A stretch of 39,543 nucleotides of DNA. Origin: a virus. Its lineage: Duplodnaviria > Heunggongvirae > Uroviricota > Caudoviricetes. The stretch lies in the IMG/VR virus record IMGVR_UViG_2541047868_000004; one strand, 5' to 3'. The notes under the pieces were generated by a model that saw only the letters and a program-made list of their open reading frames with translations, did no database searches and was not told where the DNA came from. Each line of letters opens with the position of its first letter. The stretch's first letter is position 1. A program made the translations under genes and the position numbers. Positions 16,958-23,044 of this stretch are shown here, one piece after another.

Positions 16958-18373
16958 TCAACCTACACCACAAGGAATTGAGTAACTGGAATAGTCGGGT
17001 TGCGCAGCCGACTCCGGGCAATGCATACACATCATCAACGCATCAGCCAGGTTAGGAGATGGAATACCGAGCTTCTGCTTCATTTCGACCTTAGTCATAA
17101 GCTCCAGCTTCCCGTTGTTATTGAATTTGCGCTGAATCTGCGTCAGTTCTGCAAACAGCTTCTCCAGCATCTTCTCGCCTATCGCTTCTTTGTCGAAACT
17201 CAGCATGTCGTCGGGGTCTGCATACTCACCGTAGACAACCGCCCGATATGTCAGATACAGCCTGTCAGCCAGCGCGTAATAGAATTGCGCTCGCTTATTG
17301 CGGAACACATCACCAATAGTGCGAACGTTGTCTCCCTGTACGACTTCATCAGCCCATGCTCCGGCCTGATATGGTGCATCTTCATCAAATGGCGATTCGC
17401 TGCCCTTGAACATCGTGGCGGTTATTTTCTTGCCGGAGAACGCTTCCGTTGTCTGTCTGCGTAGCCCGGCACCAACACCATCACCATCCCACAGGTAGTG
17501 GTCAGCGCCGTCTTCAATCGCCAGAGAAGTAGCCCAGTCAGCGCCCTCGTTGATGTCCATCAGCAGACCTTCGGCAATGCGCTTAACTACCGAACCGTGA
17601 CGCGATGCATAACCTTTAGCATCCGGCCCTGTATCTGATGGGTCATGTGCAGAGACAACAGCGCCTTTCGCTTTCCATCCGAGTTTCTTGTGCGCATCGG
17701 TTGCGGCTTCAAGCCATTCACGTTTGATGATTGCCATATCACTTGCGCTTACTGGCTCACCAAGCCAGATGTGACGATACAGTGTCGGATTTCTGCGTTT
17801 ACACTCTTCCATCTCCAGACGGAGAACTTCAGGAAAGTGCGGGTTGTCGGTGTAGTTCACCGTCAGCAGACAAATATCATCAGGAGGATTTACGACGAAT
17901 CGCTGATAGGTATCGTCGAGGATGTTCTTCGGGTTGAAGCTCACCCATATTTCGGAAAATGGCTTACGGATGGTTGGTATCAGGATATCCCATGATTCCT
18001 TTGTTACCGCTTCCGCTTCTTCCACCCAGCAGATATCAATGCCTTCGAGCGATTTAATCTTCGTCGGGTTGTTTTTGATGCCGTAGAACATGAACTCAGC
18101 ATTCGTTCCGAGATGACGAATCATTGAACGCTGAATTTCAAACTCAGCCGAATACCCTTCACGCTCGATGGTATCTTCAAGCAACCGGATTACCGAATCG
18201 CTGATACTGTTTTGCAGTTCACGAGCGCAGAGAATACGCACAGGTTGCCGACGCGCCGCCTCAATAAGCAGCCTCGCAATTGCCCATGACTTACCGCTAC
18301 CTCGACCGCCTTTGGCGACTTTGTAGCGATGCGCCTCAATGAACGGTTCAAAGATAGGATTAATCGAGGTCAT
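16958..18373 (-). CDS. terL: Terminase large subunit
   Basis: 471 aa; Walker A GGRGSGKS near N-terminus; position between TerS and portal. Confidence 0.9.
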   Translation of the reverse strand: MTSINPIFEPFIEAHRYKVAKGGRGSGKSWAIARLLIEAARRQPVRILCARELQNSISDSVIRLLEDTIEREGYSAEFEIQRSMIRHLGTNAEFMFYGIKNNPTKIKSLEGIDICWVEEAEAVTKESWDILIPTIRKPFSEIWVSFNPKNILDDTYQRFVVNPPDDICLLTVNYTDNPHFPEVLRLEMEECKRRNPTLYRHIWLGEPVSASDMAIIKREWLEAATDAHKKLGWKAKGAVVSAHDPSDTGPDAKGYASRHGSVVKRIAEGLLMDINEGADWATSLAIEDGADHYLWDGDGVGAGLRRQTTEAFSGKKITATMFKGSESPFDEDAPYQAGAWADEVVQGDNVRTIGDVFRNKRAQFYYALADRLYLTYRAVVYGEYADPDDMLSFDKEAIGEKMLEKLFAELTQIQRKFNNNGKLELMTKVEMKQKLGIPSPNLADALMMCMHCPESAAQPDYSSYSIPCGVG

Positions 18374-18810
18374 TTTCCGAACAGAGTGCTCATCGGTGAT
18401 GTTTCAATCTGGATTGCGCCGCCGTCTTTGCCTGTTAGCTCGTGATCAACCTTGTCGCGCCATTTATCCTTCTGTCTGTTCTTAAGCCAGAAGATGGCGG
18501 CGGTTGTATCAGGCGGGTAATACTTCTCAAGCGGAGTTTCGACAATTCTGTTTTCAATAACACGAATATCGATGTCTGGAGCCACGAAGCCCATAGCGCG
18601 TTGATAAAGACGATCACTAACTTCTGCATCAGCGACGGCCTTACCCTTTTTTATGGACTCCGAAAACTCAGGATAATCAAGCTTCCACTTGTTAATAGTT
18701 GACTCACTGACTTCGAAGAAATCAGCAAGCTCTGCATCGGTGTAGCCCAGCAAGCACAGTTTGCGTGCCTGTTCGGCGTACGCCTCTTGATACTTTGTTG
18801 GGCGCGCCAT
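18370..18810 (-). CDS. terS: Terminase small subunit (Sf6 gp1-type)
   Basis: 146 aa; C-terminal …GKDGGAIQIETSPMSTLFGK recalled as Sf6 TerS; overlaps terL start. Confidence 0.8.
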   Translation of the reverse strand: MARPTKYQEAYAEQARKLCLLGYTDAELADFFEVSESTINKWKLDYPEFSESIKKGKAVADAEVSDRLYQRAMGFVAPDIDIRVIENRIVETPLEKYYPPDTTAAIFWLKNRQKDKWRDKVDHELTGKDGGAIQIETSPMSTLFGK

Positions 18811-18812
18811 GT

Positions 18813-19055
18813 TTATGCTCCGGTAGTGAACAGGTCTAACGCTTCCTTCGATTTACGCACCGCTTCGATAGTGCGGGTCGTGATATCTGAATTAGCGCCG
18901 CCTGACTGGAAGTGAATTTTGAATAGCTCAAGCTTCAGCTCGTCAGTGCCAATGAACTGAAATGCTTCTTCTGCGGCTGCGTTCTGGTTCATGACCAGTT
19001 TGTAAATCTCTAACTGGAATTTCTGTTCTTCAGTCATGGGAATAATCTCTGCCAT
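18813..19055 (-). CDS. Small hypothetical protein upstream of terS
   Basis: ORF 18813..19067; probable start at ATG 19055 (MAEIIPMTEEQ…) with GGAG upstream. Confidence 0.45.
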   Translation of the reverse strand: MAEIIPMTEEQKFQLEIYKLVMNQNAAAEEAFQFIGTDELKLELFKIHFQSGGANSDITTRTIEAVRKSKEALDLFTTGA

Positions 19056-19381
19056 TGTTGGCTCCATTTATCCGTTAAAAGGGATATCAGTTAAGTTATC
19101 CCGTGTAGGGTATAAGCCATTGTCGAGACCACTCATTGAATGGCCTCTGCAATAACCGATGTCTTTCCATCAGTCCGCCACCACAAAGAATCTTTTTTGC
19201 CATCAGGCAGGAGGTTCATCTTTCAGTGGCTGCCAGTGTTATTTCCCCACTTACTGGCTTGGGTTGTTTCGTGGTACTGCCGTAACTGGTTGCCCAGAAT
19301 AAATTCCGGTTTCATTATCAAGCCCACCCGTAGATGGGCTTTGTAATGAAGAGCTGTTATGAAAATTGCTCTAAACAAGCA

Positions 19382-19870
19382 TTAATAGCCATCAGAAGTA
19401 AGCGCTACAGATTTCAACCCCTCAATGTCATCCTTGGACAGGGCGAACCATTCACCGTGCTTTCTCTTTGCGGCAAATTTGCGATGAAGCATGTTTTCAG
19501 TTTCTCTTCCGCCAGGGATCAGGCACTCAAGCTTCAAACAGTCTGGTCCAGAGTTGCCAAGCGATTTGATGCGTTGTGGAATGTTGGATGAATACCCAAT
19601 TTTGGTTAGCCCAGTTTTCTTCGATGACAAAACGTATACCTGAGGAGGTTCTTTTCTCTGGTCTTCCATTACACGTCTCATTGTTGCCATAAGTCCGCCG
19701 TGCATCAGCATTTCAACAAAGAACGCTGACCGAACACCTGACGACTTAAGCATGCCAGAAAATTCACTTGCCAATTCCATTAACTCTGCGATGTTTTCAG
19801 GAACTTTTTGGCAGTTATCTTCCTTGTATAAGGAAATCATTCTTTGAAGCTTTTCTTCTAATTGGTTCAT
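19382..19870 (-). CDS. T5orf172 (GIY-YIG-like) domain protein with N-terminal helical domain (moron)
   Basis: 162 aa; C-terminal motifs VYVL…TGLTKIGYS…RIKSL…LHRKF…GEWFAL typical of T5orf172/MUG113; located between lysis genes and terS. Confidence 0.6.
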   Translation of the reverse strand: MNQLEEKLQRMISLYKEDNCQKVPENIAELMELASEFSGMLKSSGVRSAFFVEMLMHGGLMATMRRVMEDQRKEPPQVYVLSSKKTGLTKIGYSSNIPQRIKSLGNSGPDCLKLECLIPGGRETENMLHRKFAAKRKHGEWFALSKDDIEGLKSVALTSDGY

Positions 19871-20015
19871 AGCGTCTTTACCTTTTAGAAAGTGAGCCTG
19901 TTCGCACAGAAAAGCCGCCCCGAGATGGTCGCCACCATATACGGCAGTTCTCAGGCTCAGCTTTCTGAAAGACTCGGGATTGTTACGCGCTGCGATGCGC
20001 GGTTTACTGCAGATG

Positions 20016-20040
20016 TAAAAAAGCCCCGCAAATGCGAGGC
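20016..20040 (-). terminator. Intrinsic terminator-like hairpin downstream of Rz
   Basis: Minus-strand CCTCGCATTTGCGGGG followed by CTTTTTTAC. Confidence 0.45.
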
Positions 20041-20214
20041 TAAATCCTGGTGTTTGTGATGACTGGCTCTTATCTCAACGCAGCCCCTTACCGCGCGCCA
20101 GATGCTCAATATCAAGCATCAGCAATGAGATGTTTAATCTGGATTCACTCCAGAAGTGATCACCATCCTGTCTACAGAGCCAGATGTGAAGGATGATGAG
20201 TAAAATTATCGCTA

Positions 20215-20652
20215 TCATCGAAGGCATTGCGTCCTGATGTATTCCTGCAGATAGTTAACTTGCGCGGTTATCTTGTCGATTCCACTTCGGAGACGGTAAT
20301 AATTGAGTTCAGCATCTGCTGTAAGTCTTGGGCTTTCTCCATCGCCCATGCTGCTGGCTCCGGTCGTTGACTTTGCACAGGTGGCGGCGACTTGCAGGCG
20401 CTTACGCCCAGCAGAAACATCAGCACGGAGACTTTCGATAGTCGCGTTAGCATCAGCAAGCTCCTTTGTGTATCTGGCGTCGAGTTCTGCTACATCACGT
20501 TGACGCTTCTGCATGTCAGCGATAGTGGATGCGGCTTTGTCGCGCTGCTCTTTGTAGGTCATGGCGTTATCACGGTAATGATTAACAGCCCATGACAGAC
20601 AGACGATGATGCAGATAACCAGAGCGGAGATAATCGCGGTTAACCTGCTCAT
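20215..20652 (-). CDS. Rz: Spanin, inner-membrane subunit (Rz)
   Basis: N-terminal TMD, coiled-coil periplasmic domain; ATG 20652 overlaps endolysin stop (ATGA); ORF track extends to 20664. Confidence 0.8.
20268..20459 (-). CDS. Rz1: Spanin, outer-membrane lipoprotein subunit (Rz1), embedded in Rz in another frame
   Basis: Embedded ORF with lipobox LLGVSAC followed by Pro-rich segment ([13 protein letters not shown]); actual start probably the internal Met preceding the lipobox. Confidence 0.6.
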
Positions 20653-21152
20653 TGCTGCCCCCACAAACAGACTTCACGCTCAATATCGCGACGGGTCATC
20701 AGCCCTTTCCATTGCTTACCGCCAGCGTATGTCCAGCGGCGCAGCTGGTCACATGCGCCCTTGATATCGCCCTGGTTGATTTTGCGAAGAAGCGTCGATG
20801 TTCTGAAATTGCCAGCCCCCACGTTGTAGACGAACGAGTAAAGAGCGCCGCGCGTTGTTTCCGGTATATCGACTCTGATGTACGGGTTAATTTGTCTGGC
20901 GACAGTGGCAAGGTCTTTATTCAAGAGTGCTTTGCATTCTGCTTTGGTATACGTTTTACCGAGCATGATGTCTTTTCCTGTATGCCCGTGACATACAGTC
21001 CATACACCAACAATATCTTTGTATGGTATGTAGCTGACACCTTCCAGACCATCGTTACCACTTGGTCCAGTGATTAACACAGATGCTATAGCAATAGCCC
21101 CGCCACTTATCGCCGCTATTACGCTATTTCGTAGTGCCGGTGACATTGCCAT
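20649..21152 (-). CDS. SAR endolysin (T4-lysozyme-like muramidase, phage 21 R-type)
   Basis: 167 aa; N-terminal signal-anchor-release domain ([17 protein letters not shown]) then lysozyme catalytic region; near-identical to P21 R as recalled. Confidence 0.85.
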
Positions 21153-21327
21153 TCAATCTGTCCTCGCGCTCTTTGCGCTTGTAGTACCAGTTGATGCCAA
21201 ATGTGCCGACAGTACAAAGAATACCAATGATGACAGCCCAGTCATTCAGGGAGAGAATGCCACCCATCGCAGTCAGTCCTCCGAAGCTGTAACTGAACCA
21301 TTCTCTGATTTTGTCCATACGGTACAT
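21124..21327 (-). CDS. Pinholin (class II holin, S21-like) with dual-start motif
   Basis: 67 aa; MYRMDK dual start; two TMDs; basic C-terminus; paired with SAR endolysin. Confidence 0.75.
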
Positions 21328-21818: not shown

Positions 21819-22331
21819 TTAAACGGTATGATATTTCATTCTGGCGGCCTCAAAAGCCGCAGCGGCAAGTTCGGCAGTATCATGGTATCCAAGGTTAATA
21901 CACTTTCCAGACGCATTAATTCTTGCTCTCCATTTCCCGTACTTAGCATCCCAAGACACGCCACGGTATCCAGATTTATTATTCTTCTGAATTTTCCTGT
22001 TCTGCATATTTTCGGAATGAGTGACAAGACGAAGATTTGATATCCGGTTATCTGTTCTTACCCTGTTGATGTGATCAATAAAACCATCGGGCATGGTGCC
22101 ATAAACAATCAACCATGCCAGTCTGTGAGCAGGGTATGCTTTACCATTAATCATAATCATTAAATACCCATCAGAATTTATTGATGAGCATTTCTTGAAA
22201 GCAAAACGAGAGTTCCATGTCAAAGTGGTCCTCTCTCTTCCCCGCCTCCATCTCCAGTGAAAGTCGCCTGATGATGGATTGTAATCAACAACAGAAAGCA
22301 CCATTTCTGGCGTTAATTTTATTTCTTTCAT
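21819..22331 (-). CDS. Free-standing HNH endonuclease with AP2 DNA-binding domain
   Basis: 170 aa; HNH motif (AHRLAW…DHINR…DNRISNLRLVTHSEN) and AP2 region (SGYRGVSW…KWRARI); between Q/tR-prime and lysis cassette. Confidence 0.8.
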   Translation of the reverse strand: MKEIKLTPEMVLSVVDYNPSSGDFHWRWRRGRERTTLTWNSRFAFKKCSSINSDGYLMIMINGKAYPAHRLAWLIVYGTMPDGFIDHINRVRTDNRISNLRLVTHSENMQNRKIQKNNKSGYRGVSWDAKYGKWRARINASGKCINLGYHDTAELAAAAFEAARMKYHTV

Positions 22332-22525: not shown

Positions 22526-23044
22526 CTAAATGGCTAATTGCATGTCAAGGCTTTTAACAGCAACATGCTTAACTTTCTCAACACGTTTACGCATTTTGAA
22601 AGCATTTTGCATTGGTTGGTACAAAACAAATAACGACGCTTTCAGGATGTCGTCAATTTCGTTTCTACAGGTTGCCAGTGAAGGTTTTCTCCATCCCTCG
22701 CCACCACGTCCACACATCTTGCGTGGCTTTGCAGTCGCGTGATAGTAGGATGCAATTGCTCGCTTAGATGAACCATGAGCGTAGTAGCTGAGGAGGATGC
22801 CAAAGGCTTTCTTGTCAATGTACATGACGGAATCGACGACCTGAGAAATCAACATTCCATCATCATCATTACACATTGGCCTTGTCATAACTCTTCCCGG
22901 CTCTACGCTCTCCATGAACTTCGCTATTACGCTGCTCATGCGCTTTTCCAGACGACCTGAATAAACCCATGCGCCCCACAGCTCAAGCCAGCCATTCAGC
23001 CAATCGTGCTGTTCTTTGGTGAGGTTTAGCTCTCTTATGCTCAT
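22526..23044 (-). CDS. Late-gene antiterminator Q-like protein
   Basis: 172 aa; position after ninH and before late terminator and lysis genes; Cys-containing basic protein; family assignment by position and general resemblance, not verified. Confidence 0.6.
   Translation of the reverse strand: MSIRELNLTKEQHDWLNGWLELWGAWVYSGRLEKRMSSVIAKFMESVEPGRVMTRPMCNDDDGMLISQVVDSVMYIDKKAFGILLSYYAHGSSKRAIASYYHATAKPRKMCGRGGEGWRKPSLATCRNEIDDILKASLFVLYQPMQNAFKMRKRVEKVKHVAVKSLDMQLAI

What the first reader, a model, noticed from the sequence alone, without database searches (positions are those of the whole stretch)
19382..19870. T5orf172-domain protein inserted between lysis cassette and terS
A 162-aa protein with a clear T5orf172 (GIY-YIG-like) C-terminal domain and a ~75-aa N-terminal helical domain sits where P22-like phages carry variable morons. 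Whether it is a nuclease, a DNA-binding module, a homing element or part of an exclusion/defence function cannot be decided from sequence.
Basis: partly seen in the sequence, partly recalled or inferred. Interest (0 to 1): 0.5.

Follow-up and report, generated by a model that had tools for sequence, protein, structure and literature searches.

The report
Small GIY-YIG nuclease in phage rha slot
A P22-like temperate phage carries a small, well-conserved gene for a probable DNA-cutting enzyme (T5orf172 branch of the GIY-YIG nucleases) in a swappable slot between its lysis and DNA-packaging genes; the gene is real, already annotated in related phages, and untested for function, so it is an ordinary but unstudied accessory gene.

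Summary
Window 19382-19870 (minus strand) encodes a 162-aa protein. Its C-terminal half passes Pfam's cut-offs for MUG113 and T5orf172, models with the GIY-YIG fold, and keeps the core Tyr/Arg/Glu residues. Its N-terminal 75 residues model as an acidic three-helix bundle that matches no known family and has no zinc finger. Both halves are under strong purifying selection (dN/dS about 0.05-0.12).

The gene is not new. About 99% identical copies are HK106 gp64, a gene of phage Chlobot, and genes in 82 of 5426 complete E. coli genomes. RefSeq names them "GIY-YIG nuclease family protein". A copy about 33% identical sits at the same position in epsilon34 and g341c.

The gene occupies the "rha slot". 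This is a conserved terminator plus a structured leader of about 150 nt, found in 994 E. coli genomes. In other phages the leader is followed by Rha, KilA-N or another T5orf172 gene.

No sigma-70 promoter was found, so expression is most likely late, by Q-dependent read-through.

The most likely function is a late-expressed DNA endonuclease used for selfish spread or inter-phage conflict. That function is inferred, not shown.

Verdict: new member of a known kind, modest interest.

The parts
19382..19870 (-). CDS of the 162-aa T5orf172/GIY-YIG-family protein (stop codon 19382-19384)
   Evidence: ORF list. Pfam MUG113 6e-15 and T5orf172 2.8e-10. PHROG 4284 7e-88. 98.8-99.6% nucleotide identity to HK106, Chlobot and E. 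coli prophage copies. dN/dS 0.05-0.12.
19646..19870 (-). Codons 1-75: N-terminal acidic three-helix bundle (net charge -2, pI 5.4; one Cys, one His, so no zinc finger)
19385..19645 (-). Codons 76-162: basic GIY-YIG-fold (T5orf172) domain. Y79, K90-I91-G92, R100 and E125 are invariant; H129 and G139-E140-W141-F142 are nearly invariant.
19871..20021 (-). Conserved structured non-coding leader ending in the Shine-Dalgarno region (AAAAGGTAAAGACGCT-ATG). It is shared with phages whose slot gene is Rha, KilA-N or another T5orf172.
   Evidence: RNA fold z=-2.6. 12-sequence alignment with 1-nt indels and a near-invariant 3' half. 83-99% identity in 994 of 5426 E. coli genomes and 153 phage records. 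Homology with CUS-3, epsilon34 and phiKp_30 stops at 19865/19866, just inside the ORF.
20022..20041 (-). Intrinsic terminator hairpin (followed by a T-run down to about 20014) between the lysis cassette and the slot gene
   Evidence: Terminator scan: 8-bp stem, 6 GC pairs, TTTTTT tail. The same element is annotated as a terminator in HK106, epsilon34 and phi80.
20053..20062 (-). Upstream copy of the imperfect 10-bp direct repeat (minus strand TCATCACAAA) at the cassette boundary relative to the empty site
   Evidence: Comparison with the empty site of vB_EcoP-611R6, locus L007.
19340..19349 (-). Downstream copy of the direct repeat (minus strand TCATTACAAA; 9 of 10 identical). About 703 bp between the repeats are absent from the empty site.
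19321..19340 (.). Hairpin AGCCCA-N8-TGGGCT just downstream of the cassette. In the empty site it directly follows the small ORF. Its U-tract on the gene strand is poor.
   Evidence: Sequence. Not reported by the terminator scan.

Best explanation
The gene encodes a small, catalytically competent GIY-YIG endonuclease of the T5orf172 subfamily. It is a basic nuclease domain of about 87 aa joined to an acidic three-helix bundle. The bundle more likely mediates oligomerisation or partner binding than sequence-specific DNA recognition. The gene sits in the 'rha slot' of lambdoid and P22-like late operons. It has no detectable promoter of its own and lies behind an intrinsic terminator. It is therefore most likely made only late in lytic growth, when Q-modified RNA polymerase reads from the lysis genes through to the packaging genes. 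I propose that it then cuts DNA of co-resident rivals, such as related phages or prophages that lack it, or satellites. Such cutting would bias recombination and inheritance towards its own cassette, in the homing or marker-exclusion style. Shown here: domain identity, fold, conservation of the catalytic core, purifying selection, slot anatomy, and exchange of the ORF between diverged flanks. Inferred: timing of expression, nuclease activity, the target, and the selfish or competitive role.

For: Precedent: T5orf172 proteins are the main putative homing-endonuclease family of ICP1 phages and cluster next to terminase genes (35% of neighbourhoods) (PMC10448857). The T5orf172 nuclease Odn cleaves DNA and is inactivated by mutating the conserved Glu (PMC8263062).

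Mobility: the ORF is 98.8-99.6% identical across P22-like, lambda-like (HK106) and DLP12-like contexts, while the leader immediately upstream is only 83-89% identical in those same loci. It is sporadic, present in 82 of the 994 E. coli genomes that carry the leader. An empty site exists, with a 9/10 direct repeat at the junctions. Relatives occupy other late-operon sites next to essential genes: between the tail tube and tail chaperone genes, and between other lysis cassettes and terminases.

Expression: same strand as the late operon, a terminator upstream, and no sigma-70-like promoter in 18700-20400.

A working gene: dN/dS 0.05-0.12 in both domains.

A second homing-endonuclease-type gene (HNH_3+AP2) sits on the other side of the lysis cassette.
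Against: No recognisable sequence-specific DNA-binding module. No CapR/DUF723/DUF4397 zinc finger, NUMOD or HTH was found, whereas 87% of T5orf172 homing endonucleases in PMC10448857 carry a zinc finger. The N-domain is acidic.

At 162 aa it is shorter than characterised GIY-YIG homing endonucleases (my own knowledge: I-TevI is 245 aa).

The mosaic boundaries fall in conserved flanks, namely the near-invariant 3' leader and the 19158-19290 segment. Ordinary homologous recombination explains the swaps without any nuclease.

The slot's other occupants (Rha, KilA-N) are DNA-binding or regulatory proteins, not nucleases.

73 of 82 E. coli copies sit in one DLP12-like prophage context, and at least two of the loci inspected are degraded. 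That pattern looks more like vertical inheritance or host-level retention than active homing.

No activity, target or transcript data exist.
Confidence: 0.4

Rival explanations
1. Prophage-encoded defence or superinfection-exclusion nuclease. The gene is expressed, at least weakly, from the lysogen or a cryptic prophage, and it cuts incoming foreign phage DNA, to the benefit of the host.
Against: No sigma-70 promoter was found between the upstream terminator and the ATG. The gene is co-oriented with the late operon and insulated from it by a terminator. It shares its leader and first two codons with Rha and KilA-N genes, which are late-operon phage genes. The PADLOC match covers only the T5orf172 domain. 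There is no membrane anchor, sensor or partner gene conserved across contexts.
Confidence: 0.2
2. A regulatory DNA-binding protein that works like the Rha and KilA-N proteins found in the same slot. In this reading the T5orf172 domain serves mainly as a DNA-binding module that modulates replication or transcription late in infection, with little or no cleavage.
For: It has the same slot, the same conserved leader and the same ATG-AAC start as Rha (CUS-3, phiKp_30, phi80) and KilA-N (HK620 hkbK). T5orf172 often co-occurs with Bro-N and KilA-N domains and was first predicted to bind DNA (the bioRxiv paper citing Iyer et al.). In that family the CapR DNA-binding domain has been domesticated as a repressor. 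phi80 rha is annotated as inhibiting DNA synthesis in IHF-deficient hosts.
Against: The catalytic-type residues Y79, R100 and E125 are invariant across 65 homologues, which a pure binder would not require. CapR's DNA binding resides in its zinc-finger domain, not in T5orf172. There is no sequence similarity to Rha or KilA-N.
Confidence: 0.15
3. A structure-specific DNA-processing nuclease that trims or resolves branched replication or recombination intermediates late in infection, so that concatemers can be packaged. It has no sequence specificity and no conflict role.
Confidence: 0.1

Closest known systems
HK106 gp64 (YP_007151734) and the copies in phage Chlobot and E. coli prophages (WP_016245257)
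   Same: Essentially the same gene: 98.8-99.4% protein identity (98.8-99.6% nucleotide), 162 aa, downstream of Rz and a terminator. RefSeq names it 'GIY-YIG nuclease family protein'.
   Different: The phage backbones differ: a lambda-like siphovirus and DLP12-like prophages against the P22-like podovirus here. Their leader allele is only 83-89% identical. None has been studied experimentally as far as I could find.
Salmonella phage epsilon34 gp68 / g341c gp64
   Same: Same slot, same leader (97.8% identity), same two-domain architecture (161 aa, MUG113/T5orf172).
   Different: Only about 33% protein identity, so it is a distinct allele of the family occupying the same slot.
ICP1 T5orf172 homing endonucleases and Odn (Gp88) (PMC10448857, PMC8263062)
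   Same: C-terminal T5orf172 nuclease domain with conserved Arg and Glu. N-terminal accessory domain. Phage-encoded, near terminase or other essential genes, sporadic distribution.
   Different: Those proteins carry N-terminal zinc-finger (CapR/DUF723/DUF4397) or RepA_N DNA-binding domains and come from lytic phages. This one has an acidic three-helix bundle, no zinc finger, and sits in temperate lambdoid phages, which I could not find mentioned in that study: terms such as HK106, epsilon34, P22, lambdoid and temperate are absent from its text, and the phage names and accessions from its supplements.
I-TevI and the Seg family of free-standing GIY-YIG homing endonucleases of phage T4
   Different: In those proteins the nuclease domain is N-terminal with a long C-terminal DNA-binding region, and they are over 200 aa (my own knowledge). 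Here the order is reversed, the protein is shorter, and the second motif Tyr is Lys (KIG).
Rha (phi80, P22, CUS-3) and KilA-N (HK620 hkbK) proteins of the same slot
   Same: Same genomic slot, same upstream terminator and leader, same first two codons, same late-operon orientation.
   Different: No sequence or domain similarity: Phage_pRha+ORF11CD3 or KilA-N against T5orf172.
GIY-YIG defence nucleases SNIPE (DUF4041) and PD-T4-3
   Different: SNIPE is a large membrane-anchored protein with DUF4041, and PD-T4-3 is a 5hmC-specific restriction enzyme. This protein has no transmembrane segment, no DUF4041 and no PADLOC system-level match.

Membership tests
T5orf172 (PF10544) / MUG113 (PF13455), GIY-YIG clan | Profile HMM match above the curated gathering score | tested here: met
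   MUG113 56 bits (cut-off 22.3). T5orf172 41 bits (cut-off 20).
GIY-YIG nuclease superfamily | Compact beta-beta-alpha-beta-alpha core fold | tested here: met
GIY-YIG nuclease superfamily | Catalytic core: Tyr of the first motif, Arg in helix 1, metal-binding Glu in helix 2 | tested here: met
   Y79, R100 and E125 are invariant in 65 homologues. Y79 and R100 align with UvrC Y and R in the HMM alignment. The equivalence of E125-N126 to I-TevI E75-N76 rests on my recollection of the I-TevI sequence and on helix position, so it is inference.
GIY-YIG nuclease superfamily | Second motif Tyr (the Y of 'YIG') | tested here: not met
   The position is K90 ('KIG'), invariant in the family. UvrC has Y at this aligned position. 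This is the usual T5orf172 variant and does not exclude activity: Odn, a T5orf172 protein, is an active nuclease.
GIY-YIG nuclease superfamily | Mg-dependent DNA cleavage | not testable with these tools
   Needs biochemistry.
Free-standing homing endonuclease gene | Sequence-specific DNA-binding or targeting domain | tested here: not met
   The N-domain has no Pfam match at E<=10, which covers DUF723 and DUF4397. It has one Cys and one His and net charge -2. Only generic helix-bundle structural matches were found.
Free-standing homing endonuclease gene | Sporadic presence or absence among closely related genomes, with a recognisable empty site | tested here: met
   82 of the 994 E. coli genomes that carry the leader have the gene. 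The empty site is in vB_EcoP-611R6. The ORF is linked to two leader alleles.
Free-standing homing endonuclease gene | Cleaves the gene-less allele and is over-inherited in crosses, with co-conversion of flanks | not testable with these tools
The flank identity pattern is equally compatible with ordinary homologous recombination.
Moron (autonomous promoter-gene-terminator unit expressed from the prophage) | Own promoter upstream and terminator downstream | tested here: inconclusive
   No sigma-70 consensus site in 18700-20400 (0 found, 1.9 expected by chance). The clear terminator lies upstream, not downstream. The downstream hairpin has a poor U-tract. The scan is a simple consensus test and cannot exclude weak or non-sigma-70 promoters.
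Rha / KilA-N slot proteins | Phage_pRha or KilA-N domain | tested here: not met
   No such Pfam hit for this protein. The CUS-3 slot protein has Phage_pRha+ORF11CD3. The relation is positional only.
Known anti-phage defence systems (PADLOC-DB v2) | Match to a system protein model | tested here: not met
   Only a domain-level hit to candidate PDC-S57 (E=7e-6, aa 73-146 against profile positions 3-83 of 212). No validated system matched.

The most novel reading that the evidence does not exclude
The 'rha slot' may be a conserved expression socket. It consists of an intrinsic terminator, a structured leader of about 150 nt that is near-invariant in its 3' half, and a shared ATG-AAC start. It is present in about 18% of complete E. 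coli genomes and in phi80, HK620, Stx and Klebsiella phages. Unrelated ORFs (Rha, KilA-N and two T5orf172 lineages) are swapped into it. If the leader is a regulatory RNA element, for example an attenuator or translational gate, and the occupants are functional analogues, then Rha, KilA-N and T5orf172 proteins would share one late-phase role, such as shutting down replication of rivals or of the host. This small nuclease, with its previously undescribed three-helix partner domain, would be the enzymatic version of that role.
Probability: 0.15. Interest if true: 0.55.

Novelty: new member of a known kind. Interest (0 to 1): 0.3.

Why it matters
The function of T5orf172 nucleases has been worked out only in the lytic Vibrio phage ICP1. 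There they act as homing endonucleases and anti-satellite weapons. This gene shows that a compact variant without a zinc finger circulates among temperate enterobacterial phages and prophages, including about 1.5% of complete E. coli genomes. It sits in a slot whose usual occupant, Rha, has itself never been explained. If this protein is an active nuclease with a defined target, it would be a simple handle on how lambdoid phages compete or exchange modules. It could also indicate what the whole rha slot is for. As it stands, it is a routine accessory gene with an existing database annotation and no phenotype.

Tried and rejected
1. NCBIfam returned no family for the full protein or the N-domain.
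2. Pfam on the N-domain alone at E<=10 returned nothing.
4. A profile search with the N-domain alone (alignment A4) found only truncated copies of the same gene. There is no evidence that the N-domain pairs with other effector domains. The sensitivity of that word-indexed search is limited.
5. Rfam found no family in the whole window at gathering threshold, and none in 18700-20300 at E<=1.
6. The IHF consensus WATCAANNNNTTR occurs at chance frequency (44 found, 47 expected), and the leader holds no exact site. A specific IHF-regulation idea borrowed from rha could therefore not be supported.
7. The simple sigma-70 scan found no promoter, so the classical 'moron' reading was set aside as unsupported.
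8. I rejected the idea that the gene is an essential packaging co-factor like the HK97 gp74 HNH protein, because the slot is empty or differently filled in close relatives.
9. Literature searches for SC0352, MUG113 plus phage, and Rha/IHF found no functional study of this protein. The ICP1 T5orf172 survey does not include HK106 or epsilon34.
10. The in-frame upstream GTG start used by some annotations (174-aa and 224-aa versions, P0003 and P0001) was rejected for this window. A 1-nt indel in this leader allele puts that GTG out of frame, and the ATG at 19870 is the start common to all alleles.

Full report
**Observation.**
It lies in the late operon of a P22-like temperate phage. The window encodes a P22-type coat protein, a P22-type portal, a tailspike with the P22 head-binding domain, a tyrosine integrase, an S24 repressor and RusA.

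On the same strand the gene order is:
- Q antiterminator (22526-23044)
- an HNH_3+AP2 protein (21819-22331)
- holin (21124-21327)
- lysozyme (20649-21152)
- Rz (20215-20664)
- a 50-aa ORF like Sf6 gene 65 (20075-20227)
- an intrinsic terminator (20041-20022)
- the gene in question
- DUF2560 (18813-19067)
- terS (18370-18810)
- terL (16958-18373)

**Protein identity.**
Pfam matches MUG113 (E=6e-15) and T5orf172 (E=2.8e-10) over residues 78-151, both well above the gathering scores. PHROGs places the whole protein in phrog_4284, function unknown. NCBIfam has no model for it.

In the 65-sequence alignment Y79, K90-I91-G92, R100 and E125 are invariant. H129 and G139-E140-W141-F142 are nearly invariant. 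A profile search of PDB sequences aligns VY...KIG...R with the Tyr, Tyr-Ile-Gly and Arg of the UvrC GIY-YIG domain. The Tyr/Arg/Glu core is therefore intact. The second motif Tyr is Lys, as is typical of T5orf172.

T5orf172 nucleases can be active. Odn of phage ICP1 cuts DNA, and mutation of its conserved Glu kills it (PMC8263062).

**The N-terminal domain.**
Residues 1-75 are acidic (net charge -2, pI 5.4), with one Cys and one His. No Pfam or NCBIfam family matches at E<=10. Structural searches return only generic helical bundles.

This is therefore not the CapR/DUF723/DUF4397 zinc-finger module that 87% of the T5orf172 homing endonucleases surveyed in PMC10448857 carry. The domain is shared by a family of proteins of about 160 aa, including epsilon34 gp68. 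A search with the domain alone found only truncated copies of the same gene. Its acidity argues for oligomerisation or partner binding rather than DNA recognition. That is inference.

**Selection.**
Codon-level comparisons give dN/dS of 0.11 (N-domain) and 0.05 (C-domain) between the window and a relative 80% identical. Two relatives of the 50%-identity branch give 0.07 and 0.05. Synonymous sites are near saturation. Both domains are functionally constrained. Some truncated or frameshifted copies also exist.

**Distribution.**
- Copies 98.8-99.4% identical at protein level are HK106 gp64 (a lambda-like siphovirus) and a gene of phage Chlobot.
- 82 of 5426 complete E. coli genomes carry the gene, and 80 of them hold at least 80% of its length. 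PGAP annotates it as "GIY-YIG nuclease family protein" in nearly all listed records.
- 73 of those copies lie in a DLP12-like prophage with a DUF1398 gene downstream. At least two of these prophages are visibly degraded. 8 copies lie in P22-like prophages with DUF2560 downstream.
- A 33%-identical relative occupies the same position in epsilon34 and g341c.
- More distant relatives (48-80% identity) sit after other, non-homologous lysis cassettes and before other terminases. One lies between the major tail protein and the tail assembly chaperone of a lambda-like tail operon. All are co-oriented with the late genes, and no partner gene is conserved across these contexts.

**Slot anatomy.**
Pairwise comparisons define the boundaries. 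Relative to the empty site in vB_EcoP-611R6, about 703 bp are extra in the window. They are bracketed by an imperfect 10-bp direct repeat: TCATCACAAA at 20062-20053 and TCATTACAAA at 19349-19340 on the gene strand.

The first 190 nt or so of this segment comprise the terminator plus a structured leader (fold z=-2.6). This stretch is shared at 83-99% identity with phages whose slot gene is different:
- Rha in CUS-3, phiKp_30, phi80 and a Klebsiella phage
- KilA-N in HK620
- the distant T5orf172 in epsilon34

Homology with those phages stops just after the first two codons (ATG AAC).

The leader occurs in 994 of 5426 E. coli genomes and in 153 phage records, including Stx2a phages. Single-nucleotide indels within it show that it is non-coding. 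It matches no Rfam family.

The T5orf172 ORF is 98.8-99.6% identical in all contexts, while the leader in those same loci is only 83-89% identical. The ORF has therefore been exchanged between two leader alleles. The near-invariant 3' part of the leader and the conserved downstream segment (19158-19290) provide ample homology for ordinary recombination. This mobility does not by itself prove nuclease-driven homing.

**Expression.**
The simple scan found no sigma-70-type promoter in 18700-20400 (0 found, 1.9 expected by chance). It found a clear terminator just upstream of the leader. The same element is annotated as a terminator in HK106, epsilon34 and phi80.

The gene does not have the classical promoter-gene-terminator anatomy of a moron. 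The most economical reading, from established knowledge of lambdoid late operons, is Q-dependent read-through late in lytic growth. This was not tested here.

An in-frame upstream GTG used in some database versions of the protein is out of frame in this window's leader allele. This supports the ATG at 19870 as the start.

**Interpretation.**
I consider a late-expressed, active GIY-YIG/T5orf172 endonuclease acting in selfish spread or inter-phage and satellite conflict the best-supported mechanism, with confidence about 0.4. The grounds are:
- the conserved catalytic core
- the precedent of ICP1 T5orf172 homing endonucleases and Odn
- the terminase-proximal and structural-operon insertion sites
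- the sporadic distribution and the empty site
- a second homing-endonuclease-type gene (HNH_3+AP2) on the other side of the lysis cassette

Against it are:
- the lack of any recognisable DNA-targeting domain
- the small size of the protein
- the fact that ordinary recombination suffices to explain the mosaic
- the predominance of one, apparently vertically inherited, prophage context

The rivals are:
- a prophage-expressed defence nuclease (0.2), supported by intact copies in degraded prophages and GIY-YIG precedents in defence, and weakened by the absence of a promoter and by the late-operon setting
- a Rha/KilA-N-like regulatory DNA binder (0.15), supported by slot equivalence and weakened by the invariant catalytic residues
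- a structure-specific processing nuclease (0.1), supported by SLX1 as the top structural hit and weakened by dispensability and the presence of RusA

**Comparison with known families, and novelty.**
The protein is a member of the T5orf172/MUG113 branch of the GIY-YIG superfamily. The HMM, fold and catalytic-core features are met, and the YIG tyrosine is replaced by Lys. It cannot be filed as a demonstrated homing endonuclease, because the targeting-domain feature was tested and not met, and homing itself is untestable here. It is not a member of any PADLOC-defined system.

The gene itself is already present and named in RefSeq. What I could not find described is its temperate-phage subfamily with the three-helix N-domain, or its relationship to the rha slot. 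I rate it a new member of a known kind, interest about 0.3.

The most novel reading not excluded is that the conserved leader is a regulatory socket and that Rha, KilA-N and T5orf172 occupants are functional analogues. I give that a probability of about 0.15.

Noticed in passing
window 21819-22331 (-): A 170-aa protein with HNH_3 (2e-18) and AP2 (1.6e-8) domains lies between the Q antiterminator and the holin. This is the same architecture as the 'IPA-HNH' homing endonucleases of PMC10448857. The lysis cassette is thus bracketed by two homing-endonuclease-type nuclease genes. CUS-3 has no annotated gene there, only 'boundary sequences'.
   Followed up: partly
window 19871-20060 (-): A conserved non-coding terminator plus structured leader (RNA fold z=-2.6). 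It is 83-99% identical in 994 of 5426 E. coli genomes and in phi80, HK620, Stx2a, Salmonella and Klebsiella phages. Its 3' half is near-invariant, and interchangeable ORFs (Rha, KilA-N, T5orf172) that begin ATG AAC follow it. No Rfam family matches. One possible compensatory change was seen in an inner hairpin. It may be a regulatory RNA element of the rha slot.
   Followed up: partly
window 20075-20227 (-): A 50-aa ORF with a hydrophobic N-terminus ([18 protein letters not shown]...) overlaps the end of Rz. It is 97-99% identical at nucleotide level in CUS-3, epsilon34 (gp67), HK620 and 611R6 (like Sf6 gene 65). Function unknown, possibly a small membrane protein of the lysis module.
   Followed up: no
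window 20053-20062 and 19340-19349: An imperfect 10-bp direct repeat (9 of 10 identical) sits exactly at the two junctions of the roughly 703-bp leader+gene cassette relative to the empty site in vB_EcoP-611R6. This is consistent with microhomology-mediated insertion, or with deletion of the cassette in the 'empty' phage.
   Followed up: partly
L021 5001-5492 (metagenome contig, relative P0013): A 52%-identical relative is inserted between the major tail protein (Phage_TTP_12) and the tail assembly chaperone (Phage_TAC_2) of a lambda-like tail operon. This is a completely different late-operon site from the post-lysis position of its close (dN about 0.12) sister P0014.
   Followed up: no
L023 5001-6187 (Klebsiella variicola prophage, relative P0009): In this prophage the 77%-identical relative is followed directly by an overlapping 232-aa Endonuclease_NS (PF01223) gene. 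The overlap suggests a two-nuclease cassette in the same slot.
   Followed up: no
L001 3634-3957 (HK106) against window 18974-19296: Downstream of its copy of the gene, HK106 (a cos-type lambda-like phage) retains the first 94 nt or so of a DUF2560 gene typical of P22-like phages. The remnant indicates that the cassette entered HK106 from a P22-like donor.
   Followed up: partly
L009 (E. coli pF138-4, 42.7-kb 'plasmid') and L008: Full-length copies of the gene persist in degraded DLP12-like prophage remnants. In one, IS150 replaces the lysis genes, and that record is deposited as a plasmid yet carries chromosomal ybdK/ybdJ genes. In the other, the tail genes are truncated.
   Followed up: no
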